Positions 7,527-62,479 of a stretch of 64,000 nucleotides of DNA are shown here, piece by piece. How positions within the stretch are numbered: the first letter of the stretch is position 1; every line of letters starts with the position of its first letter. The notes below the pieces were generated by a model, which made no database searches, had not been told where the DNA came from, and worked only from the letters and a program-made list of their open reading frames with translations. This DNA is from a virus (taxonomy: Duplodnaviria > Heunggongvirae > Uroviricota > Caudoviricetes), in the IMG/VR virus record IMGVR_UViG_3300029509_000119, positions 63,909-127,908 of that record; one strand, 5' to 3'. The translations under genes were made by a program, and so were the position numbers.

Positions 7527-7545
7527 TTTTCTTCTTCCTTTCGGA

Positions 7546-41748: not shown

Positions 41749-41982
41749 ATGTCGGCGGACTTTCCCTGTTGGAGAGTCTGCCGACCAAACGTCGAAAGTG
41801 GAACCTTGCACATTCATACCGTCTCCGAACAGGAGATTGAAAAGAACCTACCGGAACTGCCCCCTCATATGGAGGATGGTTTCAGCCTAAAACAGTTGGA
41901 AATCCTGCATGACTATGCGGTGGAAGCATTCACAGCCGGAATCGCATACGCAAACAAGCACTCCAAAGGAGCCAATCGATGA
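41749..41982 (+). CDS. hypothetical protein
   Basis: 77 aa with a weak RBS. Its stop overlaps the next gene's start. Confidence 0.35.
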   Translation: MSADFPCWRVCRPNVESGTLHIHTVSEQEIEKNLPELPPHMEDGFSLKQLEILHDYAVEAFTAGIAYANKHSKGANR

Positions 41983-43010
41983 ATGGGAAACCGTGGGTCA
42001 TTTCCATCCCACCGTTCAAATGTCCGGACAATTTGACCGGAATCCCCGACTATTACATTCAAGCGTGGGAAAAATACGTGGGCAAAGTCCAACCGGAAGG
42101 AGGGAACCGAGAGGATTGGATTGAACTCTGCGCCCGTCTTTACTGGGGCACCCGCAATCTAGGAGATGACGCCATCGTCCGTATTTGCGACAGGGATGAC
42201 GTCAACCCCCGCGACCTGATTGGACTCCCCCACTTCGGTCCGGTGTTGAGAATGCCAAGCATCGACCAGATTGGCGACCCTTCCAAAGCGGACATGTACG
42301 CCATCAATCCGAACGTGCGTATGCTCATGCACCGTAAGACACGACTCAGTTCGGTTCACGAGGATGATGTCAGTCAAGCGTTCAATTCCCTTATCGGCGA
42401 AGGGGTATCCGACTTCTTCGTCAAATACACGCACCGGAGCAAACGACTGCCGAACCTGAAACTGTCCGGCACCGACGTTGACCAGCTCGCCCAGCAGGTA
42501 CATGACTGGGGCGAATGGGCGTTCATCATGGCGGACGACGACCCGAACGCACTGCTTATCCAACAGTATGCGGACATCCGATACGAATACCGCATGTTCA
42601 TGGTAGGCGACCAGCCCGTATGCGGCGCTGGCAATATTGGCATGAAAACCCCTATCGACAACATGCATACAAGATTCGACCCTCAAGTACAGGAGCATCG
42701 TGATGACGGTACGGTGGATAATGTCGTAGTCAAACCTGAATTGGTTGAACGGTATCGCGAGTTCGCGGTAAGAGCCGGACGCATGCTCTCACACTGCGGC
42801 TACGCCGCGTATGTCCTCGACCTGTGTCTTATTGATGATGAGGTTTCCATTGTCGAATTGAACGGCATGATGAACGCCGGACTGTTCGCATTGAACATGA
42901 ACGACTTGACCATCGCTTTAAGGCTTAACTGGGAGCAATGCGTTCCGCCCGTTCTGGCTTCCCCCACCGACTCCATTCGTAGGAGGAAGCCAAGGGAAGA
43001 AAGGAGATGA
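41979..43010 (+). CDS. ATP-grasp domain protein
   Basis: The C-terminal half carries 'EYRMFMVGDQPV' and 'VSIVELNGMMNAGLFALN', characteristic of the ATP-grasp fold. 343 aa. Confidence 0.6.
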   Translation: MNGKPWVISIPPFKCPDNLTGIPDYYIQAWEKYVGKVQPEGGNREDWIELCARLYWGTRNLGDDAIVRICDRDDVNPRDLIGLPHFGPVLRMPSIDQIGDPSKADMYAINPNVRMLMHRKTRLSSVHEDDVSQAFNSLIGEGVSDFFVKYTHRSKRLPNLKLSGTDVDQLAQQVHDWGEWAFIMADDDPNALLIQQYADIRYEYRMFMVGDQPVCGAGNIGMKTPIDNMHTRFDPQVQEHRDDGTVDNVVVKPELVERYREFAVRAGRMLSHCGYAAYVLDLCLIDDEVSIVELNGMMNAGLFALNMNDLTIALRLNWEQCVPPVLASPTDSIRRRKPREERR

Positions 43011-43014: not shown

Positions 43015-43380
43015 TTGCTTGGCGGACGAATACGATTCGACGACCACCCGACTCGCGCTGTGTTCGACACCGTGGAACTTCCCACGAACGGTTCCTACGC
43101 GCTCTACCGCGTGTACCTGCGTTCTTGGCAACGACACTCCTGCCGACCGGAAGCGGAGAATGCTCCCATGTTCGACGCGATATGTCCGAAGGGATGGTGC
43201 CGGTGGATGGTGCACATGAGCATCCTGAACTATCTGGATGGGATAGGCCGGTTGGGGTGGCCTAAAACAGGCGGAGTCGTTTGGCAACATAGGACAATCG
43301 ACCCCTATGCTTGCCAACTTTCCGCTGGCTCCCGTATCCCGATGGTTGATTTTCGCGCGGACGCATCGAGTTTCAGGTGA
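43015..43380 (+). CDS. hypothetical protein
   Basis: 121 aa. TTG start 8 nt after an AAGGAG RBS. Confidence 0.4.
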   Translation: MLGGRIRFDDHPTRAVFDTVELPTNGSYALYRVYLRSWQRHSCRPEAENAPMFDAICPKGWCRWMVHMSILNYLDGIGRLGWPKTGGVVWQHRTIDPYACQLSAGSRIPMVDFRADASSFR

Positions 43381-43433
43381 GCAAACGTCAAATCCATCTG
43401 GAAACAAGCAGGAATCAACGAAAAGAAAACAAA

Positions 43434-43754
43434 ATGAAACTCACATACCCCATCATCATCATCCCCGACCATGAAAACCTCGGCACTTACGCCGTTGAAA
43501 TCCCCGACCTCCCCGGATGTACTACCGGAGGCAACAGCCTAGCCGAAGCGTTATCCATGGCCGAAGACGCGGCCAGCGGATGGGTTCTTACCGAACTAGA
43601 GGCGGGCAATCCGGCACCCAAAGCCAGCGACATGCGTTCCATCAAAACTGATGAACCAGATGCAATGGTCAGTATCATCATGCTTGACGTCAACGACCGC
43701 AATGATGAGCATTGCGGCTTGTCCCCGTCCGGCAGTGCCAGTGAACGGCTGTAA
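43434..43754 (+). CDS. HicB-family antitoxin-like protein (UPF0150/YcfA fold)
   Basis: ORF 43377..43754 trimmed to 'MKLTYPIIIIPDHENLGTYAVEIPDLPGCTTGGNSLAEALSMAEDAASGWV'. This is the canonical HicB N-terminal motif. No hicA seen. Confidence 0.6.
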   Translation: MKLTYPIIIIPDHENLGTYAVEIPDLPGCTTGGNSLAEALSMAEDAASGWVLTELEAGNPAPKASDMRSIKTDEPDAMVSIIMLDVNDRNDEHCGLSPSGSASERL

Positions 43755-43756
43755 CC

Positions 43757-45075
43757 GTTCTCCTACCTTTAATTGACGGAACATCATAGGGTGGTTGACT
43801 ACACCCTTACGCCGTCAGTCATGCTGGCGGCGTACTGCGAGTTCAAAAGGTCGTAGCCTTTGTGTCGCAGGTTCATCGCGGCTATCCGGTCGTCGTTGGA
43901 CCGGTATCCGCAGTTGCGGCAGACATACAGGTGGCGTTTCTTGTCACGGTTGGCTTTGCAGATTTTCCCGCATTTCGGGCAGGTCTGGCTTGTGTAGGCC
44001 GGGTCAACGAACACGACTTTCTGACCGTTGCGTTTCGCCTTGTATTCGACCATCTGCCGGAATTGGTGGAAACTCCAACTGACCTGAACATACCTGTCCT
44101 TGACCTTGACCTGTTCGGTCGCATTGCGGATTCCCGTAAGGTCTTCGAGAACGAACATCGTATCCCTGTCGTAATGGTTGACGAGTGCCTTAGACGCCTG
44201 ATGGTTCACATCGGTCATCCAACGGTTTTCTCTGTCGCCTATGGTTTTGAGTCGTCTGCGGGCGCTTCGGGTGCCGCGTTTCTGCAACTGTTGACGGAGC
44301 CGCTTGTATTTGCCGCGCTTGCTTTTCACCTCCCCTCCATGTTGGAAGACGGTGGTTTCGCCGTCATAACTGGTGGCGAGCATTCGGATGCCCAAGTCCA
44401 CGCCCACTATGTTTTTGGGGCTTGGGGTTGGGTCGGGAACCGGTAGGATGATGGGAATATGCAGGTACCATTTGCCTCGTTTCGATATCAGTCGGGCGGT
44501 ACCGAAACGTGCCGTACGGTATTCGTCTGGTATTCCCTTCCATTGGGCTTTGACCTTGATTCTCCCGTCCATGACGGGAAGGCTGAACATTCCGGTCTTG
44601 GACGAATAGGAGTAGTCACGGTTCCACAACAGGTCAACACCAGCGGACGAGTATTCGGGTTTGACGGAATAGCACGCCGTCCCTCTTCCTTTGGGCTTGC
44701 CTTCGTTTCGGCGTTCCATGCGCGAGTGAATTGCCTTGTAGGACGCGATGACCCGCCGTATCGAAGATTGGGTCATCTGGGCCAACAGTCCGTATTTGTC
44801 GCGTAGCGGGTGATAGACAGCCTCGTTGATTTTCCTCTGGCTGAGGGTGTGGTGTTCTCCAATCCAATCGGATACTTCGTTGCAGCAGGAGGTGTAATTG
44901 TCACATAGGCGGTTGAGGGCTTCGGACTCGTGTTTGTTGGTCGTGAGCTTGACTTTCATGGTCAATGCGAGTTCCACCATATGCTTCACCTCCAATAAAA
45001 AACATTGTATCATAATGTTAGTGGAAAGGAAAGGCATTCACCCACGACCACAAGGGTCGTGGTACCCTGCCCAAA
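43757..45075 (-). mobile_element. IS200/IS605-family insertion carrying only tnpB (IS1341-like); ends approximate
   Basis: tnpB ORF plus subterminal hairpins: 'agggtggttgactacaccct' at the 3' side (43779..43798) and 'ccacgaccacaagggtcgtgg' at the 5' side (about 45047..45068). Interrupts an otherwise uniform + strand gene array. Confidence 0.5.
43799..44983 (-). CDS. tnpB: TnpB (OrfB) RNA-guided endonuclease-type transposase accessory protein
   Basis: ORF 43799..45037 started at 'MVELALTMKV...'. OrfB_IS605 core. C-terminal zinc ribbon 'CPKCG...CRNCG' and RuvC-like 'DVNHQASKAL...VVFVDPAYTSQTC'. Confidence 0.8.
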   Translation of the reverse strand, partial: HMVELALTMKVKLTTNKHESEALNRLCDNYTSCCNEVSDWIGEHHTLSQRKINEAVYHPLRDKYGLLAQMTQSSIRRVIASYKAIHSRMERRNEGKPKGRGTACYSVKPEYSSAGVDLLWNRDYSYSSKTGMFSLPVMDGRIKVKAQWKGIPDEYRTARFGTARLISKRGKWYLHIPIILPVPDPTPSPKNIVGVDLGIRMLATSYDGETTVFQHGGEVKSKRGKYKRLRQQLQKRGTRSARRRLKTIGDRENRWMTDVNHQASKALVNHYDRDTMFVLEDLTGIRNATEQVKVKDRYVQVSWSFHQFRQMVEYKAKRNGQKVVFVDPAYTSQTCPKCGKICKANRDKKRHLYVCRNCGYRSNDDRIAAMNLRHKGYDLLNSQYAASMTDGVRV

Positions 45076-45588: not shown

Positions 45589-45858
45589 GTGAGCATTCTC
45601 ACCGAGGAACTGGAAGAACGCTATCCCATCGAGGAAGGCGAATGCATCACGCTCACGCGCGAACAGCTCGCCTTGCAGTTGCGCCGAGCATACAAGGCTG
45701 GTGCGACCCGCGATTTCAGGCGTACGGCGCACGGGAATTCGGAACTGTTGAAGGTGTGCAGTATTTTGCAGGAGTCCCGCTTGCTGTCCGATGGAACGGA
45801 TGTCGAGGACGTGGTGAGAACCGTGTTGGACGGTCGGCTCGAAACCATCACGGCTTAA
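45589..45858 (+). CDS. hypothetical protein
   Basis: GTG start with a GAAAGGAAGACAAG RBS. 89 aa. Confidence 0.4.
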   Translation: MSILTEELEERYPIEEGECITLTREQLALQLRRAYKAGATRDFRRTAHGNSELLKVCSILQESRLLSDGTDVEDVVRTVLDGRLETITA

Positions 45859-45859
45859 G

Positions 45860-45884
45860 TGTTATAATGGAGGTGTCCACACAT
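45860..45884 (+). promoter_or_regulatory. copy of conserved promoter/leader motif (TATAAT variant)
   Basis: TGTTATAATGGAGGTGTCCACACATC. Confidence 0.45.
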
Positions 45885-45908
45885 CTTTCCTTGCAGAGGA
45901 GACCGCCG

Positions 45909-46493
45909 TTGAGTTGGGATAAACGCCAAAGCCGAGACCCCAGAAGAATCGACCCACTGGAAACACCGCTCTACGATTACGTGGTCGTGGACACCGAAAC
46001 CACCGGATTCAAACCATCGGACGGTGCCAAACTCATTGAAATCGGAGCCGTGAAAATCCACGGAGGAAAACTCGTGGACAGGTACGAACAATTAATCGAC
46101 CCGCACCAGCATATCCCCGAACGCATCACCTCCCTCACCGGAATCAACGACAACATGGTTTACGGTCAGCCCGACGTAAGTCAGGCGATATGCGAATTCG
46201 ACCGTTGGCTTGGTCCGAGAACCATCATCATGGCCCACAACGCGACCTTCGACCTGAGTTTCTTGGACGCGGCCATGAAAACCGTGAACGGTGGCATGTT
46301 CTTCTTCCCCCACCGGTTCGTGGACACGTTGGAAATGAGCCGGAAAATCCATCCTGAAAAACCGAGCCACAAGGTGTCCGTGCTTATACGCGATTACGGT
46401 ATAGGCGACGTGGAGGAGCATCGCGCCTTGTCTGACGCGACTCAGGAGAACATGCTGTACGAGGCCATGCGCAGAGAGGAATTTGGCCGCTAA
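45909..46493 (+). CDS. DnaQ-like 3'-5' exonuclease (DEDDh, DNA pol III epsilon family)
   Basis: Exo I 'YVVVDTETTG', Exo II 'AHNATFDLSFL', Exo III 'HRALSDA'. Probable TTG start at 45909, 7 nt after GAGGAG. The in-frame ATG at 45867 lies inside the promoter. Confidence 0.7.
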   Translation: MSWDKRQSRDPRRIDPLETPLYDYVVVDTETTGFKPSDGAKLIEIGAVKIHGGKLVDRYEQLIDPHQHIPERITSLTGINDNMVYGQPDVSQAICEFDRWLGPRTIIMAHNATFDLSFLDAAMKTVNGGMFFFPHRFVDTLEMSRKIHPEKPSHKVSVLIRDYGIGDVEEHRALSDATQENMLYEAMRREEFGR

Positions 46494-49483: not shown

Positions 49484-50104
49484 ATGTTGAAAATCGAGAA
49501 GACGCTGAAAGAACTGCGTGACCTCCAAAACACCTTGCTTGACCTCGGAATCGAAATGTCTATCAAGGATGCGGATGACGAAACGAAAAACGATTACGAG
49601 GATGCGGCGATGACCATTGACATATTTGAGCCGTGTCGTTGTTTCGCATGGGTCGGCATGGACGGCGTGATTCATATGAGGTGGAATTCGTATCCCGATG
49701 CCTTCGCGTGGTTTCGGATGAACCTGCTTTTGGACCTCGCTCGCGGCTACATGCTGAAAGCGGACAACATCACGAAATCCTGGACGCACCTTCGCAGGAA
49801 TCTCGACGGTCAGGATGCCGAGATGCCTCTCCCCGACAAGCTGGCCGGAAGGAAAGCAGAATACGAGAATGCGGCAAACCGACTGCGCGACCTCATCAAA
49901 GCCGACCCGATTGCAATGGATTTATCCCCTTACGAATGCGAACGCCTTGAAAGGTTCCTCCGCGACCCGCAGAAGGAACGTCTTCTGGAGTATGACCCGG
50001 ACGACCCGTTTTACAGGAACATGTTCAACAGGAGCTTGATTGACCGCGACGGGCTGACCGAACTGGGACGGAAGGCCATGGAACATTACATTGAGTCGGT
50101 CTGA
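49484..50104 (+). CDS. hypothetical protein
   Basis: ATG at 49484 with an AAAGGAGAAACG RBS. 206 aa. Confidence 0.5.
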   Translation: MLKIEKTLKELRDLQNTLLDLGIEMSIKDADDETKNDYEDAAMTIDIFEPCRCFAWVGMDGVIHMRWNSYPDAFAWFRMNLLLDLARGYMLKADNITKSWTHLRRNLDGQDAEMPLPDKLAGRKAEYENAANRLRDLIKADPIAMDLSPYECERLERFLRDPQKERLLEYDPDDPFYRNMFNRSLIDRDGLTELGRKAMEHYIESV

Positions 50105-50403
50105 CCGTCACGTCCATAGTCGGACAATCCGCGCGAATACGCGGCCTCCCGTTCGCTGAGGGCCTGTTCTCGTTCACGCGCGGGGCTGGACTGGACGTGG
50201 CCTTCACTGTCGAATCGGCTGTGGATTCGGGGACGCATGGCTCCAACAAGAACCTCAAGGAGCAGGAGCCGACCATGAACATTCCCCGCAAGTCCACGGA
50301 AGAGAAAGCCGATGAGCGCCAAACCACGCCGCAACCACGGAATCAAGCTTGACGAACACGGCAACGAAATCATTCACGATGACAGAACACAGGAAGAGGA
50401 ATC

Positions 50404-52158
50404 ATGAGGATAAGCGATGGCACGGAGACAATGGAGGTCTCCGTAAAGGAATACGGAGACCACTCCGACAAGGAAATCACCGACCGGGCTCTGCCTCAAC
50501 TGGTCGATTGGGCGGAAACCCCCGGTATCGTAAGAAATGTGCGACGAACATCGCATCGCCTGATGGAACTCTTTGCGAACGATGGGGCGGACGCCCGCAC
50601 GATTCTCGGACACACCCCTTATGGAATGAAGCTGGGACTCAGTATCCGCCTGCACGCACCCGACATTCAGGACGACGAACGCGGCCTGCCGGACGACATC
50701 GGGCTGACGCGATACATGCGCGTCGGCAAGCCAAGCCCGGGCGTCATCGTGGAGACCGAGCTTTATCGCTTGGGAAACGTCCTTCGAGGCCGCAATCTGA
50801 GTGGACTCGACCTGCGATACCTCGACTTTTCCGGAGTGGACCTTTGCGACGTGAACATGTCAGGAGCCGATTTGAGAGGTTCTTTGATCGACTCGGGCAC
50901 ACCTCTCGGCCGCACCGTATTCAACAACGCAGACATGCGTCGCATGAGGTTCGTCGGAAGGCTGGATCCACGCCGTCCCGTCTATCTGGAGGACGCCGAC
51001 CTGCGAGAAGCCGATTTCAGCCGTGCCAACGTAAGCTGGTTCCAGTTCAACGGTTCCGACATGTCGGGCGCGATACTGCGAAACGCCGTCTTCGAATGCA
51101 CGAACATGGAGGGCGTGAACCTTGCCGGGGCCGATGCGACCGGAGCCAGTCTGGGCGACATTGACCTGCGGGAGGCGAATCTGACCGGCGCGGCGATGGA
51201 CAGGGCTTTCTTGGACAGGACGGTGATGGCCGATGCGACCGTAGGCAGGACGAGCGTTCACGGGCTTCGCATCCGCAGGGGCAATGTCCGTCGAGTGGAC
51301 TTCGGACAAGCCCACGGGGCGGGGAGCATGTTCTTCGAGAACACGAAGACAAAGGGGAGCATGCTTCCCGGAAGGTTCGTCAACCATTATTATGACGCCA
51401 GTCTCATAGCCCGGGGGAACGGCTGGAGGCTGAACTACCGCAACAACGGCCTCGACTGTGTGCTTACCTTCGACTGGCGCAACGGATGCCCCGACCCCCG
51501 CACGCTTGGCCACACGCCGGAATGGGCGGACATGGACTACCGCGACAGGGTTGAGGAAATCCGCTTCGTGCCGGGTTCCAAGGCACCGGAGGACATGAGT
51601 GCCTTCTTCGAGGACATGTTCGCCCTGCGCCGGGTGGACTTCACGAATCTGGACATGTCGAAGACCGTCAGTCTGGCATGGATGTTCAACAATTCGGGCT
51701 TCAGGGACGTTGAAATCGTCAACCTGAAGGCCCCGAACGCAAAGGACTGCGAGCGTCTGTTCCGACTTGGCCCCGACGTGACGAGCCTGAAGGTGCCCGG
51801 ATTGGACGTGAGCGGCGCGGAGGTCGCCCGCGAGATGTTCGCCTCGTGGAATCGGATTGCCGAACTGGACCTATCGGAACTGCGGCTGCCGCAGGCCAGG
51901 GACATCAACCGCATGTTCATGTGCTGCGAGCGGCTTCGCAGACTGGACATCTCCAATCTGGAGCTTCCCCCCGACGTGGAGATGGACAACAGGGGGCCGG
52001 CCATGTTCTCCGACTGCGTCTCCCTTGAGCACGTGGACATGCCAACGAAGGGTGCGCTGGCCGACCGGTACGGGGAGACGATGAAACGGTTCAACGCGGG
52101 CGACCGCGGCGTGTTGGAGGCACGGCCGTATCCGCGTGTCACCGTACTCGCCCTGTAA
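50404..52158 (+). CDS. pentapeptide-repeat protein fused to a BspA-type leucine-rich repeat domain
   Basis: The middle region is tandem A(D/N)LxG-type pentapeptides (LSGLDLRYLDFSGVDLCDVNMSGADLRGSLIDSG...). The C-terminus has 'AWMFNNSGFRDVEI', 'REMFASWNRIAELDL', 'NRMFMCCERLRRLDI' and 'AMFSDCVSLEHVDM' LRR_5/BspA-like units. Confidence 0.65.
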   Translation: MRISDGTETMEVSVKEYGDHSDKEITDRALPQLVDWAETPGIVRNVRRTSHRLMELFANDGADARTILGHTPYGMKLGLSIRLHAPDIQDDERGLPDDIGLTRYMRVGKPSPGVIVETELYRLGNVLRGRNLSGLDLRYLDFSGVDLCDVNMSGADLRGSLIDSGTPLGRTVFNNADMRRMRFVGRLDPRRPVYLEDADLREADFSRANVSWFQFNGSDMSGAILRNAVFECTNMEGVNLAGADATGASLGDIDLREANLTGAAMDRAFLDRTVMADATVGRTSVHGLRIRRGNVRRVDFGQAHGAGSMFFENTKTKGSMLPGRFVNHYYDASLIARGNGWRLNYRNNGLDCVLTFDWRNGCPDPRTLGHTPEWADMDYRDRVEEIRFVPGSKAPEDMSAFFEDMFALRRVDFTNLDMSKTVSLAWMFNNSGFRDVEIVNLKAPNAKDCERLFRLGPDVTSLKVPGLDVSGAEVAREMFASWNRIAELDLSELRLPQARDINRMFMCCERLRRLDISNLELPPDVEMDNRGPAMFSDCVSLEHVDMPTKGALADRYGETMKRFNAGDRGVLEARPYPRVTVLAL

Positions 52159-52231
52159 AAGCGCTCGGACGCACGCCGATATGACAATTGACCACGGGGA
52201 CGCATCTGACGAACGGAAAGGAGAATAAGGA

Positions 52232-52909
52232 ATGACTGAAAGACCGTTCATCGTCATCGACTTGGACAACACCTTCGTCGACTACACGACCGCGTTCAAG
52301 GAATGCCTGACCCAAATGGGCTACGACGGCTACGCTGACGCGCCCGACCCGTCGGACTATTCCTTCGCATGTGACGACTGGTTCGAAGACGAGGACACGT
52401 TCTTCCCATTGCACCAGCGTGCCGTGGAACTCGGCCTGTATCTGCGCGAACGCCCCTACGCGGGCGCGTTGGACGTGGTATCCGATGTGGCGCGGCGATA
52501 CTCCGTCCTGTTCGCCACCAGCCGCGAGCGGGATGAGACGGACAGTCTGCGGTGGCTGCACGCCTACGGGTTGGACGCGACCCCGAACTGGAATCTCGAC
52601 CTTTGGCGCGACACGTATCCCGAAACGTTCGAGTGGACCATAAGGGATTCCTGCCGCCGTGATGGAAGCGGAATCCGCTTCTGCCACATCTGGGATAAGA
52701 CGTTTCTGGACGCCGACCTGACCGTCGAGGACAATCCGCATACGCTCGACTGGCTTATGGACAAAGGGTTGCGCGTGCTGGTCAAACGGCACGCCTACAA
52801 CCTGCCCCAATGCGAACGCGCCGAACAATCCGGCTTGGGGTTGTCATTCGACGATTGGACGCAGGTGCCCGCATTGGCGAAACGACTAGTGGAGGAGAAC
52901 GCGAAGTGA
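52232..52909 (+). CDS. HAD-superfamily phosphatase-like protein (possible nucleotidase or polynucleotide 3'-phosphatase)
   Basis: N-terminal 'FIVIDLDNTFVDYT' is the HAD motif I (DxDxT). No P-loop. 225 aa. Confidence 0.5.
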   Translation: MTERPFIVIDLDNTFVDYTTAFKECLTQMGYDGYADAPDPSDYSFACDDWFEDEDTFFPLHQRAVELGLYLRERPYAGALDVVSDVARRYSVLFATSRERDETDSLRWLHAYGLDATPNWNLDLWRDTYPETFEWTIRDSCRRDGSGIRFCHIWDKTFLDADLTVEDNPHTLDWLMDKGLRVLVKRHAYNLPQCERAEQSGLGLSFDDWTQVPALAKRLVEENAK

Positions 52910-53169
52910 ATCTTGCACCATGCCCGTTCTGCGACGGCACCGTGCATCTCGTGTTCGACCGCGATTTCCGGCGCGGCGTCCGCTATGGAATCGTCCACGA
53001 ACGGCCTTGCTCGCTTTTGCCGACCTTATGGGCGGCGTACGGGGTTGAATCCGATACGCTCGCCCGCTGTTGGAACCAACGGTATGGGGTGGCGAACCGG
53101 CTGCGAGCATTGGGTGAGGATGGGCTGGCTGACAAGCTGGCTTACGAGGGGGTTGGTTTACCTTCGTGA
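52906..53169 (+). CDS. Lar-family restriction-alleviation protein-like
   Basis: GTG start overlapping the upstream stop. 'LAPCPFCDGTVHL ... ARCWNQRYG' resembles the Lar N-terminal zinc-ribbon signature (CPFCG). Confidence 0.5.
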   Translation: MNLAPCPFCDGTVHLVFDRDFRRGVRYGIVHERPCSLLPTLWAAYGVESDTLARCWNQRYGVANRLRALGEDGLADKLAYEGVGLPS

Positions 53170-53176
53170 CCGAATG

Positions 53177-53204
53177 TGTTATACTGGGGGTGTTCACATA
53201 AAAA
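53177..53204 (+). promoter_or_regulatory. copy of conserved promoter/leader motif
   Basis: gTGTTATACTGGGGGTGTTCACATAAAA. Confidence 0.5.
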
Positions 53205-53247
53205 CCAGTCAGAAAAGAGACCACCATCCCGATTTGGAGCAGCAACA

Positions 53248-53874
53248 ATGCATAGCCTATACAAGACCGCAGGTAAATGCACTCTCAATCGAAACAAAGT
53301 GCGTTACCCCAACCAAAAGGAAGCCCAACTCGCCTTGGCTGTCATCAAAGGACGAGGCAATCCGAAACACACGGAGAAACGCGCATACCATTGCCCCGTC
53401 TGCCACGGATGGCATCTGACCAGCGCCGAAACCGTGAACGACACCATCCTGTCCGGAAGCGTACTCCAGCATACAAATCCAAACGCGTTCAACACCGGCA
53501 TGGAAGCGTTCAAATCCGGTTCCAGACAAGGCAGATACTCCATCAGCAAGGCAAGCCTGACCCGGCGTGTGCGACACCTGCTCCACCTGTTCGCAGCCAA
53601 CGACATTCCGGAGGATTCGTGGGACAACCCATGGTTGTGGGCCACCCTCCGATTCCAAATCATGTGGCATGGCGGCGATGAAAAAGCGGAACAACTGCTG
53701 TCCACTTCGAAAAAGACCGTCAAAATCGCGGGAGACATGCTCGCAGAAGACAAGACGCCGTTCCTTCGCGTGGCTGAAAACCGGAAGGAAGCAAGACGAT
53801 TGCATGATACGCCACTGCCCGCATGGTTGGCCGTGGCATTATTGGCGGATAAAGGAAAGGAACAGGAAAGGTGA
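53248..53874 (+). CDS. hypothetical protein with 'YHCPVCHGWHLTS' zinc-ribbon-like motif
   Basis: ORF 53176..53874 started at 'MHSLYKT...'. 208 aa. Confidence 0.5.
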   Translation: MHSLYKTAGKCTLNRNKVRYPNQKEAQLALAVIKGRGNPKHTEKRAYHCPVCHGWHLTSAETVNDTILSGSVLQHTNPNAFNTGMEAFKSGSRQGRYSISKASLTRRVRHLLHLFAANDIPEDSWDNPWLWATLRFQIMWHGGDEKAEQLLSTSKKTVKIAGDMLAEDKTPFLRVAENRKEARRLHDTPLPAWLAVALLADKGKEQER

Positions 53875-54044
53875 ATGAAGAAGAGCTGAAAGAGAGGGCT
53901 ATCCGTTCCCTTCTCCAATCGAGCCTCGGCAAAGTCTCCCCGGCGGAAGCGTTCGTCATCGGATGGCGCAAAGGCTGGGATGAGGCGTTAGACGTGGCTT
54001 TGGAAATCGTTCGCAAGGAACTCGACGGCGAGGAAGAGTGCTGA
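53871..54044 (+). CDS. possible small protein (57 aa)
   Basis: GTG at 53871 overlapping the previous stop, with an AAGGAAAGG RBS. VNEEELKERAIRSLLQSSLGKVSPAEAFVIGWRKGWDEALDVALEIVRKELDGEEEC. Not in the ORF track. Confidence 0.3.
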   Translation: MNEEELKERAIRSLLQSSLGKVSPAEAFVIGWRKGWDEALDVALEIVRKELDGEEEC

Positions 54045-54086
54045 ATCACCTATCCAGCAGCAACAATTAGAAAGGAACTAAAACAT

Positions 54087-55142
54087 ATGGTTCGAAAAAT
54101 GGTGAGCGTGCAAGCCATCGAAGGCGTGTACCCAATCAAGGATGCAGACCGTATCGAGAAAGCGAAAATCGGAGGATGGATTGTCGTAGTCGCCAAGGAC
54201 ATGGGATTGAAACCCGGCGACCATGTGGCCTATTACGAAATCGACTCCATGCTGCCCGCCGACGACCCACGGTATGCGGAATTGCAGAAACGTGGACAGC
54301 GCACCGTGCCAGTGTCCAACACGATTACCGGCGAAGAACGCGAAATCACCGGACACGTGTTGAAGACCGCAAGACTGCGAGGCGTATACAGTCAGGGTTT
54401 GGTCATGCCGCTCTCGACTATTGGCGTGCCGGAGGATACTCCGGTCGGCACCGACGTCACCTTGCAGGCGAACGTGTGGAAATTCGAGGAACTACCGCCT
54501 TTGAAAGGCGGGGATATGGTTGGCGTGTTCAACGCGCCATGCTCCAAGTCGGACGCTACGCGAGTGCAGAATCTCACCGCGTATTGGGATGAAATCAAAC
54601 GGATTGCGTGGACGCCAACCGTGAAAGTGGATGGCACCAGCACCACAATCTACCGTGACATGGATGATATGGTTCACGTCTATTCTCGAAATTGGGAGTT
54701 GAAGCCGGAATGCACGAACATGCAAGTGGCGGTGAAAACCGGATTGGTTGACGCGTTGGAGAAAGGCATGGTCTGCCAGTTCGAGCTGTGCGGACCAAGT
54801 GTCAACAGCAACAGGTTGAAGCTCGCCTCCTATCGTCCATTCGTGTTCGCCGTATGGCGGGACGGCATGAAACTCGACCGCGAGGATTGGCCGAAAGCCA
54901 TGCTCGACAATGCCGCTCCCCTGTTGGACGAGGACGAATGGAAGCCGACCGGCGATGTGATGGACATGATTGCCAAAGTGGACGGTCTGCGCGGCAACGT
55001 GACCCGCGACTTGTTGGATGAAGGTATCGTCTGGCATGCGAAAGCGGGCGAACGGTTGAGCGACGACCTATATGACGAGCTTGGCGGCAACCGTTGCTTC
55101 AAAATCATCAATAATAAGTATCTGACCAAGCACGGTCTGTGA
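54087..55142 (+). CDS. ATP-dependent RNA ligase (DRB0094/Rnl-like, KxDG adenylyltransferase)
   Basis: Nucleotidyltransferase motif I 'TPTVKVDGTS' (lysine in KxDG). N-terminal 'IEGVYPIKDADRIEKAKIGGWIVVVAKD' resembles the DRB0094-family N-domain. 351 aa. Confidence 0.6.
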   Translation: MVRKMVSVQAIEGVYPIKDADRIEKAKIGGWIVVVAKDMGLKPGDHVAYYEIDSMLPADDPRYAELQKRGQRTVPVSNTITGEEREITGHVLKTARLRGVYSQGLVMPLSTIGVPEDTPVGTDVTLQANVWKFEELPPLKGGDMVGVFNAPCSKSDATRVQNLTAYWDEIKRIAWTPTVKVDGTSTTIYRDMDDMVHVYSRNWELKPECTNMQVAVKTGLVDALEKGMVCQFELCGPSVNSNRLKLASYRPFVFAVWRDGMKLDREDWPKAMLDNAAPLLDEDEWKPTGDVMDMIAKVDGLRGNVTRDLLDEGIVWHAKAGERLSDDLYDELGGNRCFKIINNKYLTKHGL

Positions 55143-55149: not shown

Positions 55150-55179
55150 CAGGGCTATGGGGTTTTCCCTCAAGCCCTG
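55150..55179 (+). terminator. stem-loop immediately after the RNA ligase stop
   Basis: cagggct...agccctg, 7-bp stem with a 16-nt loop. Followed directly by a promoter copy. Confidence 0.3.
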
Positions 55180-55182
55180 TTC

Positions 55183-55229: not shown

Positions 55230-55628
55230 TTGCCAATGCAACCAGAAAACACCGGAGAACTCACCACTGTTATCGACCCCACGTCCATCACACGCATGGC
55301 GTCCAGCCGTCCGGACAATAGGGAAACCACTATGTATGGCAGACACGGCAAACATGATGGCAAGCCAGTAAGAATCAGAAAGACACGCGTTAAACCCGAT
55401 AGACCAAAACGTCCCGTGGAGCAAATCATGCCGTTTATCATGCTCACAATCAGCATCGTATATATGGCTGGAATGGTGCCACTTCTTTGGCTTATGCCGG
55501 TTTCAGAACCGGAGAATATGATTGTTCGTCCTATCCTGACCGGTTTGGTCGGTATGGCGGCGGTTTCCGCCGACGTTCCGGCTTGGGTATATTTCGCTGG
55601 TTGGCGTCGGAATTCGCGGAAAAGCTGA
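55230..55628 (+). CDS. membrane protein
   Basis: 132 aa with C-terminal TM helices 'IMPFIMLTISIVYMAGMVPLLWLM' and 'PILTGLVGMAAVSA'. Confidence 0.45.
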   Translation: MPMQPENTGELTTVIDPTSITRMASSRPDNRETTMYGRHGKHDGKPVRIRKTRVKPDRPKRPVEQIMPFIMLTISIVYMAGMVPLLWLMPVSEPENMIVRPILTGLVGMAAVSADVPAWVYFAGWRRNSRKS

Positions 55629-59818: not shown

Positions 59819-62479
59819 ATGGCAAGAGACGGCTTCTATCGTCCGGAAAGCTTCATTAGTCCCGGCAGTGAATACGGTCTGCTTCGAGCGGCCACGCCGG
59901 ACAGGACCGTATGGCTGTATGCGAAGATTCCTTGGACGAGCGCACTGTTGGACGGTGCCGGTGATTCGAAACGCAAGGAAGCCGAACAGGGTTTCATGGC
60001 GTTCTTCGACGGATTGGCCGGTGAGGTCAGCGTGGCTGGCATGCGCTACCGTGACATTCTGAAAAGCGAATACAGGGAATTCCACCTGCTGACCGGTTCC
60101 ATGCCCATCCCCTACCGTCCGCCGGTCATGCAGCAGGATGATTTGAAAAGCTATCAGGCGTACTATTACCGTAATCTGAACGTGTGCAAGCAGTTCGCCG
60201 TAATCGGGGTTCCGTTGAAACTGGGTGGCGAGGGCGGAAGGAAGGGACGCAAACAGTCCCTCCTACGCAGAGCCACCACGAAATTCAATCAGCTTAGCTT
60301 CTCCATGGCGAACGGTTACGCCATGTTCGAGGAATACCTGCCCGACGCGCACCGTATCGAACGCATCATGCTGAACGCCGGTCTCATACCTTTCACCGTC
60401 ATGGAGGAAAGCGAACGGGAACAGCTGGTCGCGATGATGGAGACATGGTGGGTGAGCCGCGCGTCCGCATCAGCCCTTCCCATCATAGCCGAGAACGACC
60501 ATCTGCATTTCTTCCCCAACAGCAAGGTCTGCCAGAACGCGAAACGCCTGTACGATGAGGGAATCGACTGCGACCAGTGGAACATCGACAGTGAGTATCC
60601 GGCGTCAATCTGCTTCGCCAGAACCACCCAATTCGCCCAATCGGACATCACCGACCCGTCGAATCTTTGGATTGCGAAATTGATGGAGGTCGCCACTGCC
60701 GGTGGGGCGAACGCGGTCGGAACGTCAATTCGAGGAAAGGTCGAACCCGGCAAGGTGACCGCCGACACGATTCGCCGTAACGCCCGCACGATTGACGAGA
60801 ACATCAAGGAGCGTTACCAGCATGGGCGTGAGGCGTCCGCCGACATGACCGATTTGAAATATCGGTTGGACTATAAGAAAGCCATCTACAATTCGCCTGA
60901 AATGCCGCCGAGCATCATTGATTTGAGCGTGGCCGCCTGTGTGGCCGGTAACGCGCAGATGGCCGTTGACTCGTTGCAGAACATCCAGAACTTCGAGTTC
61001 ACGAATCTGACCACCGCCAACGAACAGTTGATGGCGTTCAAAAGCATGCAGGCGTGTTCGCCTGTCCGTATGACACCTTATGAGATTCACTGGTCGGCGA
61101 CCTGCGTGGCCGGTGGCGGCGTAAGCAGTTTCGCCAAGGCCGGTGACGATACGGGCGCGTTGGTCGGATTGACGGAAGCGAACCGGCAGCCCGTGTATGT
61201 GGGCACCACGACGGTGCAGGACAAGGACACGCGACCGGGCATTCTGGTCATCGGCGAGACCGGTTCCGGCAAGTCCATGCTGCTGGTGAGCCTGTTTTTG
61301 CAGTGGATGCTGATTGACTCGCGTAGCGGCAAAGGTAAGACGCCCTGCATTCTCGTCAATCCGAAGGAAGGCAACGATTTCGAGGACGCGGTACTGTCCC
61401 GCAACGGAACCGTGCTCAGAATGGACTCCGACATCGCCGATGGCACATTCGACCCGTACAACGTGCTCCGCAGCGAGGAGGAGGCCAAGGATATGGCCGC
61501 CATCATGATTTCCGACATCCTCAAACCCGACGGCGACACCTCCTACGAGCTGACCGTCAAGGCGATGCTGGACTACGGGTACAAGAAAGGCGGTCGTTGC
61601 TGCGGAACGATTCTCTACAAGGCCGCGACGGACTTCCGCGCCCTCCAACAGGCGGGCGAGGACCCTTCCAAATACAATCTGTATCCGGACACGTTGGAAG
61701 TGTTCAAAATGGTTACGATGAGCGTCAACACCAACCAATCATTGAGGCTCATCTTCGGCACCAACGACAACGTGACCCCGTTGCGGGTCAGCCAGAACTT
61801 GACCCTCATCAACGCGGGCGACCGTTCCATGATTCCAGAACGAGGTGCCGAGAACACCGTCACCGGACGTATCCAACGTTGGGTTCTCCGCATGATTGTG
61901 TTCGGAGCCGGTGCGGCGGTGAGTGAACGAGACGGCATGGTCGGAATCGACGAGGCTTGGGCGATTCTGGGCGAGGACAAGGGTGCCGCCAAGGTGAACG
62001 AGTGGATGCGTACCGCGCGTTCCCGCCGTTTCACTCCGGTGTTCGCCTCGCAGAAGGTCAAGGAGTTCATCAACGCGGGCATGACGGGCGGTATCGGCCG
62101 AGCGTTTCTGCTGGCATTGGACGACCCGATTCAGGATTCCCCGGCGCGAGACGCATTGCGGCTGTTGCAGATTGAGGATTCCGGCAATCGTATCCGCTCC
62201 CGCATGAGCATGGGCGACACGAAGGAGAATGACGACCCGAACTGGTCTGGCATGAGGCGTCTGCGCGTCAAAGACAAGGAGACCGGCAAAGACAAGACCA
62301 TTCGCGGTGCCATCGCCTATTTCAAGGATTCCAGCAAACAGCCCGTACCCGTCGAGGTCATCATCCCGACTGACCTGTTGAAGGAAATCTCCACGACGGC
62401 GACCGACAAGATTCGTCGCGAGGAGGAGAAGAAGAAAGCAATGCAAGCGTTTGAAACGCAGGAAGGACAAGAACAGTGA
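59819..62479 (+). CDS. VirB4-like type IV secretion ATPase (TrbE/CagE/PrgJ family)
   Basis: 886 aa. Walker A 'VIGETGSGKSMLL'. Walker B 'MVGIDEAWAIL' (DEAW is typical of VirB4). Confidence 0.75.
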   Translation: MARDGFYRPESFISPGSEYGLLRAATPDRTVWLYAKIPWTSALLDGAGDSKRKEAEQGFMAFFDGLAGEVSVAGMRYRDILKSEYREFHLLTGSMPIPYRPPVMQQDDLKSYQAYYYRNLNVCKQFAVIGVPLKLGGEGGRKGRKQSLLRRATTKFNQLSFSMANGYAMFEEYLPDAHRIERIMLNAGLIPFTVMEESEREQLVAMMETWWVSRASASALPIIAENDHLHFFPNSKVCQNAKRLYDEGIDCDQWNIDSEYPASICFARTTQFAQSDITDPSNLWIAKLMEVATAGGANAVGTSIRGKVEPGKVTADTIRRNARTIDENIKERYQHGREASADMTDLKYRLDYKKAIYNSPEMPPSIIDLSVAACVAGNAQMAVDSLQNIQNFEFTNLTTANEQLMAFKSMQACSPVRMTPYEIHWSATCVAGGGVSSFAKAGDDTGALVGLTEANRQPVYVGTTTVQDKDTRPGILVIGETGSGKSMLLVSLFLQWMLIDSRSGKGKTPCILVNPKEGNDFEDAVLSRNGTVLRMDSDIADGTFDPYNVLRSEEEAKDMAAIMISDILKPDGDTSYELTVKAMLDYGYKKGGRCCGTILYKAATDFRALQQAGEDPSKYNLYPDTLEVFKMVTMSVNTNQSLRLIFGTNDNVTPLRVSQNLTLINAGDRSMIPERGAENTVTGRIQRWVLRMIVFGAGAAVSERDGMVGIDEAWAILGEDKGAAKVNEWMRTARSRRFTPVFASQKVKEFINAGMTGGIGRAFLLALDDPIQDSPARDALRLLQIEDSGNRIRSRMSMGDTKENDDPNWSGMRRLRVKDKETGKDKTIRGAIAYFKDSSKQPVPVEVIIPTDLLKEISTTATDKIRREEEKKKAMQAFETQEGQEQ

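What the first reader, a model, noticed from the sequence alone, without database searches (positions are those of the whole stretch)
52232..55142. RNA ligase with a HAD phosphatase-like gene and a Lar-like gene: a possible RNA-repair (anti-anticodon-nuclease) module
CDS 54087..55142 carries the covalent-AMP motif KVDG ('TPTVKVDGTS') and a DRB0094-like N-domain, the hallmarks of ATP-dependent RNA ligases. Three genes upstream is a HAD-fold DxDxT phosphatase (52232..52909), which could be an end-healing 3'-phosphatase. Between them lie a Lar-like restriction-alleviation gene and a Zn-ribbon protein. Phage T4 uses Pnkp plus Rnl1 to reseal tRNAs cut by PrrC-type anticodon nucleases. A plasmid-borne healing/sealing set would be an analogous counter-defence. 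No 5'-kinase (P-loop) is evident, so the pathway may be incomplete or use a different chemistry.
Basis: partly seen in the sequence, partly recalled or inferred. Interest (0 to 1): 0.65.

Follow-up and report, generated by a model that had tools for sequence, protein, structure and literature searches.

The report
Plasmid RNA ligase cassette beside unrelated phosphatase
A Bifidobacterium conjugative megaplasmid carries an intact nick-sealing RNA ligase of a known family, but the phosphatase gene next to it is a nucleotidase-type enzyme that usually travels without the ligase, so the proposed heal-and-seal RNA-repair module is not supported as a unit.

Summary
CDS 54087-55142 is a full-length, catalytically intact Rnl5-family (DraRnl/NgrRnl-type) ATP-dependent RNA ligase. 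CDS 52232-52909 is a HAD phosphatase with all four motifs. A weak Lar-like gene and a Zn-ribbon gene lie between them. No polynucleotide kinase is present in the 64 kb.

- The HAD belongs to the capped NT5C (5'(3')-deoxyribonucleotidase) type, not the Pnkp or SAK-HAD RNA-repair type.
- The locus is two separate cassettes joined at 53149/53150: [HAD-Lar] and [promoter-like site, Zn-ribbon protein, 57-aa protein, Rnl5].
- In the ligase's own lineage the Zn-ribbon and 57-aa genes accompany it in 29/29 loci, and HAD+Lar in only 3.
- Of 32 HAD-centred loci, 3 carry the ligase.
- dN/dS is about 0.1 for the ligase and Zn-ribbon gene, but 0.33-0.5 for the HAD.

An RNA-repair role for the ligase itself stays plausible. 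Relatives sit beside tRNA arrays (pMP7017, Curtobacterium pS16 with a SAK-HAD, three actinophage groups). One 82%-identical copy neighbours an RlaP gene.

Verdict: a new member of a known ligase family inside a plasmid accessory and anti-restriction array. Interest is modest.

The parts
54087..55142 (+). [quoted passage not shown] N-terminal OB domain plus nucleotidyltransferase domain, with no C-terminal appendage.
   Evidence: Domain hits. NgrRnl structures match at 5e-34 and 3.3e-73 over the full length. The active-site equivalents of NgrRnl R4, D53, K121, R149, K170, D172, E227, E312 and K326 are R3, D53, K132, R159, K180, D182, E233, E312 and K339. All are invariant or nearly invariant in 23 homologs (residue list from PMC7261155). 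dN/dS is 0.09-0.11.
53871..54044 (+). 57-aa protein of unknown function. Its start overlaps the stop of the Zn-ribbon gene. It always accompanies the ligase in this lineage.
   Evidence: phrog_33887 at 2.2e-10, function unknown. Present with the Zn-ribbon gene upstream of the ligase in 29/29 loci and in L183, at 62% identity where the ligase is 80%.
53248..53874 (+). Zn-ribbon protein (208 aa from ATG 53248; the ORF is open from GTG 53176), function unknown. It is the constant partner of the ligase.
   Evidence: Invariant CPxCxGWHLTS motif. The family is very narrow, 12 clusters. dN/dS of 0.10-0.11 matches the ligase. The AF2 model is poor (pLDDT 63) and has no informative fold match.
53157..53185 (+). 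Promoter-like site (TTTACC, 17-nt spacer, TATACT, preceded by TG) at the left edge of the ligase cassette.
   Evidence: This is a consensus match only; the site count in the region is not above chance. It lies just right of the 53149/53150 junction.
55157..55180 (+). Weak terminator-like hairpin 15 nt after the ligase stop codon.
   Evidence: 9 pairs, 3 G-C; not above chance.
53149..53150 (.). Recombination junction between the two cassettes.
   Evidence: By blastn, L006 lacks window 50093-53149 but keeps 53150 onward at 98.8% identity. L089 shares sequence up to 53149 and then continues into the homolog of gene 55230-55628 without the ligase cassette.
52906..53169 (+). Lar-like small Zn-ribbon protein (87 aa), translationally coupled to the HAD gene by a GTGA overlap. 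It belongs to the HAD cassette, not the ligase cassette.
   Evidence: PF14354 at E 0.0024, below the cutoff. phrog_599 at 2.2e-4. Overlap seen. It co-occurs with the HAD in 13/32 HAD-centred loci.
52232..52909 (+). NT5C-like HAD phosphatase (225 aa). It is a neighbour of the ligase cassette, not a conserved partner.

Best explanation
The window is part of a pMP7017-like conjugative megaplasmid of Bifidobacterium.

Identity. Gene 54087-55142 encodes an intact Rnl5-family RNA ligase.

Chemistry (by homology to DraRnl/NgrRnl; inferred, not shown here):
1. Lys180 reacts with ATP, using Mn2+, to form ligase-AMP.
2. The AMP is transferred to a 5'-phosphate.
3. An RNA 3'-OH attacks, sealing a nick in a base-paired RNA or RNA:DNA duplex.

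Gene organisation. The ligase is the last gene of a self-contained three-gene cassette: Zn-ribbon protein, 57-aa protein, ligase. The cassette has its own promoter-like site. It sits as an optional insert in the plasmid's variable array of accessory and anti-restriction genes (ArdC, Lar-like, DEDDh exonuclease, orphan methylase), upstream of the transfer genes. The adjacent HAD is an NT5C-type nucleotide monophosphatase. It is translationally coupled to the Lar-like gene and forms a different cassette that is usually found without the ligase.

Most likely role of the ligase (inferred): direct resealing of 3'-OH/5'-PO4 breaks in structured RNA, probably tRNA, made during conflict between the plasmid and its host or rival elements. 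Such ends need no end-healing enzyme. A role in sealing ribonucleotide-terminated nicks in plasmid DNA is the main alternative.
For: Ligase identity and intact active site: with PMC7261155.

Purifying selection on the ligase and the Zn-ribbon gene (dN/dS about 0.1), against 0.33-0.5 for the HAD.

Cassette boundaries and the shared junction at 53149/53150.

Co-occurrence:
- Zn-ribbon and 57-aa genes with the ligase in 29/29 loci of this lineage, HAD+Lar in 3.
- The same three-gene cassette in L183 (ligase 80% identical) with no HAD or Lar within 6 kb.
- The ligase in only 3/32 HAD-centred loci with at least 5 kb on both flanks (3/23 with at least 9 kb).
- No recurrent partner, and no HAD/NT5C/PNK, among 150 neighbours of Rnl5 in 39 diverse genomes.

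HAD is NT5C-type.

Plasmid and anti-restriction context: RepA_C, ParA, DnaB, VirB4-like, ArdC, HicB, methylase. pMP7017 relatives.

RNA-repair leaning of the ligase family:
- pMP7017-type ligases follow an 18-tRNA array.
- Curtobacterium pS16 has the ligase inside a 30-tRNA plus tmRNA array, with a SAK-type RNA-repair HAD two genes upstream.
- Actinophages Mimi, Cece and A3Wally carry it at tRNA arrays.
- RlaP (PF10127, 7.6e-16) lies 410 bp downstream of an 82%-identical ligase in L181.
Against: - No biochemical or genetic data exist for this protein. The physiological substrates of Rnl5 enzymes are unknown (PMC4408790, PMC5397189).
- This window has no tRNA gene and no Rfam match in 64 kb. 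Its close relatives have none within 6-10 kb either. The tRNA link is therefore borrowed from more distant relatives.
- In the sister pMP7017 lineage an NT5C-type HAD lies directly downstream of the ligase in 14/14 loci. A distant HAD homolog lies about 4.4 kb upstream of the ligase in B. canis, B. cuniculi and the related metagenomic contig L095. Some functional link between this HAD family and Rnl5 therefore cannot be excluded.
- The promoter and terminator calls are not above chance.
- The only phenotype known for an Rnl5 is radiation resistance in D. radiodurans, which points to DNA repair rather than RNA repair (PMC5397189).
Confidence: 0.7

Rival explanations
1. The HAD phosphatase heals 3'-phosphate or 2',3'-cyclic-phosphate ends and the ligase seals them. 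Together with the Lar-like and Zn-ribbon genes this forms one plasmid-borne counter-defence module against PrrC/RloC/colicin-type anticodon nucleases, analogous to T4 Pnkp plus Rnl1.
For: - The genes are co-directional and within 1.2 kb of each other.
- A diverged member of the same HAD family (about 30% identical) is the immediate downstream neighbour of the ligase in pMP7017-type plasmids, in 14/14 loci. Another lies about 4.4 kb upstream of the ligase in B. canis, B. cuniculi and the related metagenomic contig L095, although no other flanking gene is shared.
- An independent precedent for a stand-alone HAD next to Rnl5 exists on Curtobacterium pS16 (SAK-HAD).
- The HAD also gives a weak hit to phrog_415, annotated 'polynucleotide kinase' (6.6e-6, motif I-II region only).
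Against: - The HAD is NT5C-type with a cap. There is no hit to HAD_SAK. HAD_PNKP scores only 17 bits, partial, in one homolog. hhalign against the pS16 SAK-HAD gives probability 0.1.
- HAD and ligase are separated by a recombination junction and occur independently: the ligase without the HAD in L006, L183 and 26/29 lineage loci; the HAD without the ligase in 29/32 loci.
- Their evolutionary rates differ.
- There is no 5'-kinase in 64 kb, so 5'-OH ends could not be sealed.
- Rnl5 is a duplex-nick sealer and is feeble on single-stranded RNA. Loop breaks are the province of Rnl1 and Rnl4 (PMC4408790).
Confidence: 0.12
2. The ligase acts on plasmid DNA rather than on RNA. It would seal nicks whose 3' end is a short ribonucleotide patch or an RNA primer. 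Such nicks could arise during complementary-strand synthesis after conjugative entry, or during repair of nicked or restricted plasmid DNA when dNTPs are scarce. This would aid plasmid establishment.
For: - DraRnl accepts DNA in the 5'-PO4 strand and the template strand.
- DraRnl is encoded on a megaplasmid.
- DraRnl is needed for radiation survival in a ligase-activity-dependent way, which its authors interpret as DNA repair (PMC5397189).
- The cassette sits in an array with ArdC, Lar-like and DEDDh exonuclease genes just upstream of the transfer genes.
- DraRnl's operon partner DR_B0095 is DEDDh-like (PMC5397189). A DEDDh exonuclease lies 7.6 kb upstream here, and 3-4 kb from the ligase in L097, L183 and L069.
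Against: - There is no direct evidence for this role.
- The recurrent placement of relatives at tRNA arrays, next to RlaP, and near SAK-HAD or RtcB points to RNA rather than DNA substrates.
- The transfer origin and the leading end of this plasmid were not located.
Confidence: 0.22
3. The ligase is selfish cargo with no role for the plasmid in this host: a passenger gene recently acquired from a phage.
For: The cassette is an insertion/deletion polymorphism. Rnl5 genes are common in phages, with 331 records. These megaplasmids are even catalogued as viral contigs.
Against: - Purifying selection is strong (dN/dS about 0.1 out to 80% identity).
- All catalytic residues are intact.
- The identical protein is found in 138 collection blocks on contigs of 50-200 kb.
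- The gene is retained across at least four diverged bifidobacterial element lineages.
Confidence: 0.05

Closest known systems
Rnl5 nick-sealing RNA ligases: Deinococcus radiodurans DraRnl (DR_B0094) and Naegleria gruberi NgrRnl (PDB 5cot)
   Same: The architecture is the same: an N-terminal OB domain plus a nucleotidyltransferase domain, about 340-350 aa, with no C-terminal module. All ATP- and metal-binding residues are conserved. The profile match to NgrRnl is full length (3.3e-73). Like DraRnl, it is encoded on a megaplasmid.
   Different: It is about 30-35% identical to NgrRnl by eye in the alignment, and it falls below the TIGR02306 equivalog cutoff. It sits on a conjugative plasmid of a gut anaerobe, in a cassette with a Zn-ribbon protein and a 57-aa protein rather than with a DEDDh-like gene. 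Its activity has not been tested.
Phage T4 Pnkp + Rnl1 tRNA healing-and-sealing pathway against the PrrC anticodon nuclease
   Same: A mobile element carries an ATP-dependent RNA ligase, and a DxDxT HAD phosphatase gene lies nearby.
   Different: There is no kinase. The HAD is a capped NT5C-type enzyme, not the Pnkp phosphatase domain. The ligase is Rnl5 (duplex nicks), not Rnl1 (anticodon-loop breaks). The two genes are not co-inherited.
pMP7017 (B. breve JCM 7017, KM406416) genes B7017_RS00815 (RNA ligase family protein) and B7017_RS00820
   Same: It is the same plasmid family in the same genus. The ligase is 61% identical, and the neighbouring gene is a homolog of the window's HAD at about 30% identity.
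   Different: In pMP7017 the HAD is the immediate downstream neighbour, and the pair follows an 18-tRNA array. Here the HAD is upstream, in another cassette, and no tRNA genes are present in 64 kb. RS00820 is annotated as an IspD-type cytidylyltransferase, which the Pfam NT5C match contradicts. The pMP7017 transcriptome paper does not mention the ligase (PMC10832533).
Curtobacterium sp. MCSS17_016 megaplasmid pS16: SAK-type HAD plus Rnl5 inside a tRNA/tmRNA array
   Same: It is an actinobacterial megaplasmid with an Rnl5 ligase (38% identical) and a stand-alone HAD two genes upstream.
   Different: The pS16 HAD belongs to PF18143, the HAD_SAK_2 RNA-repair family, and shows no detectable similarity to the window's HAD. 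In pS16 the pair is embedded among 30 tRNA genes and a tmRNA.
NT5C family 5'(3')-deoxyribonucleotidases (human cdN 6g2n; Staphylococcus 3bwv)
   Different: The window protein itself scores below the NT5C threshold (15.4 bits). It carries a lineage-specific, poorly modelled insert at residues 113-148. Its substrate is unknown.

Membership tests
Rnl5 (DraRnl/NgrRnl-type) RNA ligase | N-terminal OB-fold domain specific to this clade (PF21189) | tested here: met
   PF21189 at E 3.1e-20, residues 5-109, covering the whole profile.
Rnl5 (DraRnl/NgrRnl-type) RNA ligase | Nucleotidyltransferase domain with the motif I lysine (KxDG) and the motif III, IV and V residues that bind ATP and the catalytic metal | tested here: met
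   K180, D182, E233, E312, K339 and R159 align with NgrRnl K170, D172, E227, E312, K326 and R149 (PMC7261155). They are invariant in 23 homologs.
Rnl5 (DraRnl/NgrRnl-type) RNA ligase | No C-terminal specificity domain; the protein ends just after motif V | tested here: met
   The protein is 351 aa. The profile alignment runs to residue 338 of the 340 in NgrRnl.
Rnl5 (DraRnl/NgrRnl-type) RNA ligase | Score above NCBI's equivalog cutoff for TIGR02306 | tested here: not met
   97.7 bits against a cutoff of 151.15, although the match is end to end (7-348 on 4-341). This is a naming threshold, not a structural feature. NCBI calls the pMP7017 homolog 'RNA ligase family protein'.
Rnl5 (DraRnl/NgrRnl-type) RNA ligase | Seals 3'-OH/5'-PO4 nicks in duplexes only when the 3'-OH strand is RNA; Mn2+-dependent | not testable with these tools
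   Requires a biochemical assay.
T4-type healing-and-sealing RNA repair (Pnkp + Rnl1) | 5'-OH polynucleotide kinase (P-loop) | tested here: not met
   No PNK-like P-loop protein in the 64-kb window. The rest of the roughly 180-kb plasmid was not seen.
T4-type healing-and-sealing RNA repair (Pnkp + Rnl1) | Polynucleotide 3'-phosphatase of the Pnkp-HAD type | tested here: not met
   There is no HAD_PNKP or PNK3P hit for the window protein. One homolog gives 17.3 bits, partial, against a cutoff of 27.6. The best folds are capped nucleotidases.
T4-type healing-and-sealing RNA repair (Pnkp + Rnl1) | Ligase specialised for breaks in RNA stem-loops (Rnl1/Rnl4 architecture) | tested here: not met
   The architecture is Rnl5. 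Rnl5 is feeble on single-stranded RNA (PMC4408790).
T4-type healing-and-sealing RNA repair (Pnkp + Rnl1) | Healing and sealing genes inherited together | tested here: not met
   3/29 ligase-centred and 3/32 HAD-centred loci carry both genes. A junction at 53149/53150 separates them.
NT5C 5'(3')-deoxyribonucleotidase-type HAD | Four HAD catalytic motifs (DxDxT; S/T; K; D/E-D) | tested here: met
   D10, D12, T14, T96/S97, K156 and E166-D167 are invariant or nearly so in 18 and in 10 sequences.
NT5C 5'(3')-deoxyribonucleotidase-type HAD | Pfam PF06941 above the gathering score | tested here: inconclusive
   The window protein scores 15.4 bits, below the cutoff of 24.8. Its family members in pMP7017, L095 and B. 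cuniculi score 30.7, 34.8 and 31.8 bits over nearly the whole profile.
NT5C 5'(3')-deoxyribonucleotidase-type HAD | Rossmann-like core with a helical cap inserted after motif I, as in cdN/mdN | tested here: met
SAK-HAD (Swiss-army-knife RNA-repair HAD; PF18143, and PF10307 as recalled from memory) | Sequence membership in the SAK-HAD families | tested here: not met
   No HAD_SAK model appeared among the Pfam hits at E up to 0.1. hhalign against the pS16 SAK-HAD gives probability 0.1.
Lar restriction-alleviation protein | Pfam PF14354 above the gathering score | tested here: inconclusive
   18.5 bits against 28.6. phrog_599 at 2.2e-4. The CPFC and WNxR motifs are visible in the sequence. No functional test was possible.

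The most novel reading that the evidence does not exclude
The NT5C-like HAD could be a non-orthologous replacement of the SAK-type RNA-repair phosphatase. On this reading, [HAD + Rnl5] on actinobacterial megaplasmids is a minimal, kinase-less tRNA repair kit that works alongside plasmid-borne tRNA arrays to defeat tRNA-cleaving defences. In pMP7017 the pair sits next to the tRNA array. In this window the pair has been loosened by cassette shuffling. If true, this would give Rnl5 ligases their first physiological substrate.
Probability: 0.15. Interest if true: 0.65.

Novelty: new member of a known kind. Interest (0 to 1): 0.33.

Why it matters
The ligase itself is an ordinary new member of a biochemically well-described family, and its pMP7017 homolog is already annotated. 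The proposed four-gene repair module does not hold together.

What is worth keeping is a lead on an open question. Papers from the laboratory that characterised Rnl5 ligases state that their physiological substrates are unknown. Here, Rnl5 genes on actinobacterial mobile elements repeatedly sit at tRNA gene arrays, sometimes with recognised RNA-repair partners (SAK-HAD, RlaP, RtcB).

This window shows the ligase travelling as a compact cassette with two unknown small proteins, inside an anti-restriction gene array of a gut-commensal conjugative plasmid. That makes a genetic test feasible in a tractable plasmid system: ligase-dead allele, tRNA integrity, transfer into defended recipients.

Tried and rejected
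- Nucleotide identity: megablast of 50-58 kb against PLSDB and against phage records found nothing. Protein-level searches were needed.
- HAD against solved structures by sequence: the single sequence and the profile both gave nothing usable. A fold comparison was required.
- Wider HAD profiles over all ligase-centred genome loci found the family only in bifidobacterial elements, plus one weak hit in an unannotated stretch of Gordonia phage Mollymur.
- Zn-ribbon protein: the homolog search found only 12 close clusters. The AF2 model was poor (pLDDT 63). The BFVD fold search gave no match at E <= 0.001; only the N-terminal helix plus ribbon resembled small uncharacterised actinophage proteins. 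Its function remains unknown.
- The afdb50 fold library was unavailable.
- PADLOC scan of ten locus proteins: only the DEDDh exonuclease matched, so there is no sign that the ligase is part of a known defence system.
- tRNA and Rfam scans of the window were empty.
- Extending beyond the window: the upstream look-up failed. The 10 kb downstream holds transfer genes and no tRNAs.
- The extra genes found between the 57-aa gene and the ligase in the majority variant (L194) gave no informative Pfam hit.
- The Burroughs and Aravind 2016 RNA-repair survey could not be opened. What is said about SAK-HAD and RlaP therefore rests on Pfam descriptions and on PMC7824862.
- DNA ligase or other nucleotidyltransferase identity for the 'KVDG' protein is rejected: only Rnl5 structures are hit.

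Full report
**What the window is.** The 64 kb carries plasmid replication and partition genes (RepA_C 9540-10409, two ParA-like genes) and DnaB. It also carries an orphan N6/N4 DNA methylase, a GmrSD-like gene, a TnpB and a VirB4-like ATPase (59819-62479). An ArdC anti-restriction homolog (40317-41171) and a HicB antitoxin are present too. The exact ligase protein occurs in 138 blocks of the assembly collection, on contigs of 50-200 kb. One of these, ERZ1303581 NODE_14, is 100% identical to the window over 15 kb. The closest named relatives are Bifidobacterium proteins. The complete plasmids with homologs are pMP7017 of B. breve and its B. longum relatives, with a ligase 61% identical. Downstream of the window lie a CHAP lysin and an FtsK/SpoIIIE protein. 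The window is therefore part of a pMP7017-like conjugative megaplasmid. The finding lies in a long co-directional array of small accessory genes upstream of the transfer genes.

CDS 54087-55142 has the PHA02142 OB domain (3.1e-20) and the RNA_ligase domain. It matches TIGR02306 end to end (5.9e-28, though below the equivalog cutoff) and phrog_968 RNA ligase (7.8e-44). Among solved structures it matches only Naegleria gruberi RNA ligase (5e-34; a profile of 23 homologs gives 3.3e-73 over residues 5-338 of 340). [quoted passage not shown] They correspond to R3, D53, K132, R159, K180, D182, E233, E312 and K339, all invariant or nearly invariant in the homolog alignment. dN/dS against relatives of 80-95% identity is 0.09-0.11. 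It is an intact Rnl5 ligase, not a DNA ligase.

CDS 52232-52909 has all four HAD motifs, conserved across its family. The Lar-like gene starts at GTG 52906, overlapping the HAD stop codon. It matches Lar models only below threshold. The Zn-ribbon protein has an invariant CPxCxGWHLTS motif. No PNK-like kinase exists in the 64 kb.

**What kind of HAD.**
- The window protein has only a weak NT5C hit. Its family is narrow and carries no precomputed Pfam domain, apart from one weak, partial hit that bears unrelated domains (47 clusters).
- The family's more distant members, in pMP7017, B. cuniculi and the related metagenomic contig L095, pass the Pfam NT5C threshold over nearly the whole profile. 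HAD_PNKP scores 17 bits on a fragment.
- No HAD_SAK model (the 'Swiss army knife' RNA-repair HAD) was among the Pfam hits.

The protein is therefore a capped, small-molecule-type nucleotidase by every test available, not an end-healing phosphatase type.

**Two cassettes, not one module.** Nucleotide comparison with close relatives locates sharp boundaries.
- L006, with an identical ligase, lacks window 50093-53149 (pentapeptide gene, HAD, Lar) but keeps 53150 onward at 98.8% identity.
- L001 and L004 lack only the pentapeptide gene. Their HAD is just 65% identical, while Lar, the Zn-ribbon gene and the ligase are 99-100% identical.
- L089 and L092 have the HAD (48%), Lar (82-85%) and the homolog of gene 55230-55628, but nothing corresponding to the Zn-ribbon gene, the 57-aa gene or the ligase. 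Their homology with the window stops at 53149.

The same junction, 20 nt before the Lar stop codon, thus bounds both kinds of variant. Immediately to its right lies a promoter-like site (53157-53185). A weak hairpin follows the ligase (55157-55180). Neither class of site is more frequent than chance in this region.

**Counts.**
- In 80 ligase-centred loci from IMG/VR, the 30 loci of the window's own lineage (ligase at least 83% identical) have the Zn-ribbon and 57-aa genes upstream in 29 of 29 with upstream sequence. HAD plus Lar are present in only 3.
- A locus whose ligase is 80% identical keeps the Zn-ribbon gene (71%) and the 57-aa gene (62%) and has no HAD or Lar within 6 kb.
- In 80 HAD-centred metagenomic loci, full-length HADs with at least 5 kb on both sides number 32. 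The ligase is present in 3. Lar is present in 13 and the 55230 homolog in 16.
- The Zn-ribbon gene evolves like the ligase (dN/dS 0.10-0.11). The HAD does not (0.33-0.50).
- Across 39 diverse bacterial genomes, the two genes on each side of Rnl5 (150 proteins) show no recurrent partner and no HAD, NT5C or kinase family among the listed families.

**What still speaks for a link.** The same HAD family, at about 30% identity, is the immediate downstream neighbour of the ligase in pMP7017 and in all 14 pMP7017-type loci sampled. A distant HAD homolog lies about 4.4 kb upstream of the ligase in B. canis, B. cuniculi and L095. No other flanking gene is shared between these contexts. The 14 loci are close relatives, so this amounts to few independent events. 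HAD-centred loci of those same sub-lineages mostly lack the ligase. I rate a real functional partnership at roughly 0.12-0.15.

**Family-level clues to the ligase's role.**
- In pMP7017 the ligase follows an 18-tRNA array. 12 of 14 loci of that lineage have tRNAs within 6 kb.
- On Curtobacterium megaplasmid pS16 an Rnl5 (38% identical) lies among 30 tRNA genes and a tmRNA. Two genes upstream is a stand-alone HAD of the SAK RNA-repair family (PF18143, 3.5e-11). That HAD has no detectable similarity to the window's.
- In Arthrobacter phage Mimi and Microbacterium phages Cece and A3Wally the ligase sits in, or at the end of, arrays of 9 to more than 20 tRNAs. Cece also has an RtcB-like ligase nearby.
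- In L181 an RlaP gene (PF10127, 'RNA repair pathway' Pol-beta family, 7.6e-16) lies 410 bp downstream of an 82%-identical ligase.
- Counter-examples exist: PAK_P3, Microcystis phage Mic1, and Arthrobacter and Glaciihabitans plasmids.
- This window and its close relatives have no tRNA genes nearby.

**Known biochemistry.** Rnl5 enzymes seal 3'-OH/5'-PO4 nicks in duplexes whose 3'-OH strand is RNA. NgrRnl is feeble on single-stranded RNA. Rnl1 and Rnl4, not Rnl2 or Rnl5, are the loop-break specialists. The physiological substrates of Rnl5 are unknown (PMC4408790). The only phenotype known is radiation sensitivity of a D. radiodurans knockout. There the gene lies on a megaplasmid in an operon with a DEDDh-like gene (PMC5397189). 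The pMP7017 transcriptome paper discusses the Lar homolog, the tRNAs and a tmRNA but never mentions a ligase.

**Conclusion.**
- Shown: the identity and integrity of the ligase; the NT5C-type nature of the HAD; the two-cassette structure; the lack of co-conservation; the absence of a kinase in the window.
- Inferred: that the ligase seals 3'-OH/5'-PO4 breaks in structured RNA (tRNA) during conflict between mobile elements and hosts. Such ends would need no healing enzyme. This rests on the contexts of relatives.
- The main alternative is sealing of ribonucleotide-terminated nicks in plasmid DNA.
- The PrrC-type scenario is chemically incomplete here: there is no kinase, and the ligase class is wrong.
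- This is a new member of a known family in an ordinary accessory array. The tRNA-array association of Rnl5 on actinobacterial mobile elements is the most useful by-product.

Noticed in passing
L087 (pMP7017) 4472-11680; L189 (Curtobacterium pS16) 276-10311; L099, L185, L186 (phages Mimi, Cece, A3Wally); L219-L231 and L244; L254; L260: Rnl5 ligase genes on actinobacterial plasmids and phages repeatedly sit inside, or at the end of, large tRNA gene arrays of 9-30 tRNAs. pS16 also has a tmRNA and a SAK-type RNA-repair HAD two genes upstream of the ligase. This window and its close relatives have no tRNAs nearby. The pMP7017 transcriptome paper does not mention the ligase.
   Followed up: partly
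L181 7469-8191: An RlaP gene (PF10127, RNA-ligase-associated Pol-beta nucleotidyltransferase, E 7.6e-16) lies 410 bp downstream of a ligase 82% identical to the window's. The otherwise identical locus L182 lacks it. RlaP homologs also occur near GmrSD-like and RepA genes in L141, L143-L146 and L171, without a ligase nearby. No RlaP is found in the window.
   Followed up: partly
L087 11126-11680 (pMP7017 B7017_RS00820): The gene annotated '2-C-methyl-D-erythritol 4-phosphate cytidylyltransferase' in RefSeq for pMP7017 and the B. longum megaplasmids is an NT5C-type HAD phosphatase (PF06941, 30.7 bits, above the cutoff). This looks like a misannotation.
   Followed up: yes
window 40317-41171: An ArdC-type anti-restriction protein (ArdcN plus a Peptidase_M78/IrrE-like domain). 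With the Lar-like gene and an orphan N6/N4 methylase (2705-3661, minus strand), it marks this plasmid region as rich in anti-restriction functions.
   Followed up: no
window 45642-46493: A DEDDh (RNase_T) exonuclease, also matching the PADLOC Cas-associated DEDDh model (5.4e-36). DraRnl's operon partner DR_B0095 is DEDDh-like. Homologs lie 3-4 kb from the ligase in L097, L183 and L069.
   Followed up: partly
window 50404-52158: A 584-aa protein with pentapeptide repeats and a DUF285/BspA-like C-terminal region. It is an insertion/deletion polymorphism: window 50181-52192 is absent from L001, L002, L004 and L005. It is often found upstream of the HAD in other elements.
   Followed up: partly
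window 41979-43010; L194 7350-8348; L183 7731-8771: An ATP-grasp protein of the R2K clade (scores just below threshold). In most variants of this plasmid lineage a homologous ATP-grasp gene lies one gene downstream of the ligase. In the window it is 11 kb upstream.
   Followed up: no
window 43377-45037: A HicB-like antitoxin (43377-43754) next to a TnpB/IS605-family gene (43799-45037, minus strand). No HicA toxin partner was looked for.
   Followed up: no
L191-L231, L243-L245 (IMG/VR contigs of 100-217 kb): Bifidobacterial conjugative megaplasmids of this family are catalogued as viral contigs in IMG/VR. They carry RepA, ParA and type IV secretion genes rather than obvious virion genes in the parts seen.
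   Followed up: no
window 12510-16418 (-), 17456-20116 (-), 20561-21757 (-): Three large ORFs (1302, 886 and 398 aa) have no Pfam match. The 886-aa protein has a Walker A motif at residue 432 and may be a second conjugation ATPase.
   Followed up: no
window 52460-52711 (inside the HAD gene): The central part of the HAD gene is too diverged from L001 for blastn to align, while its flanks are 87% and 99% identical. The gene appears to be a mosaic, and its dN/dS is elevated (0.33-0.50).
   Followed up: partly
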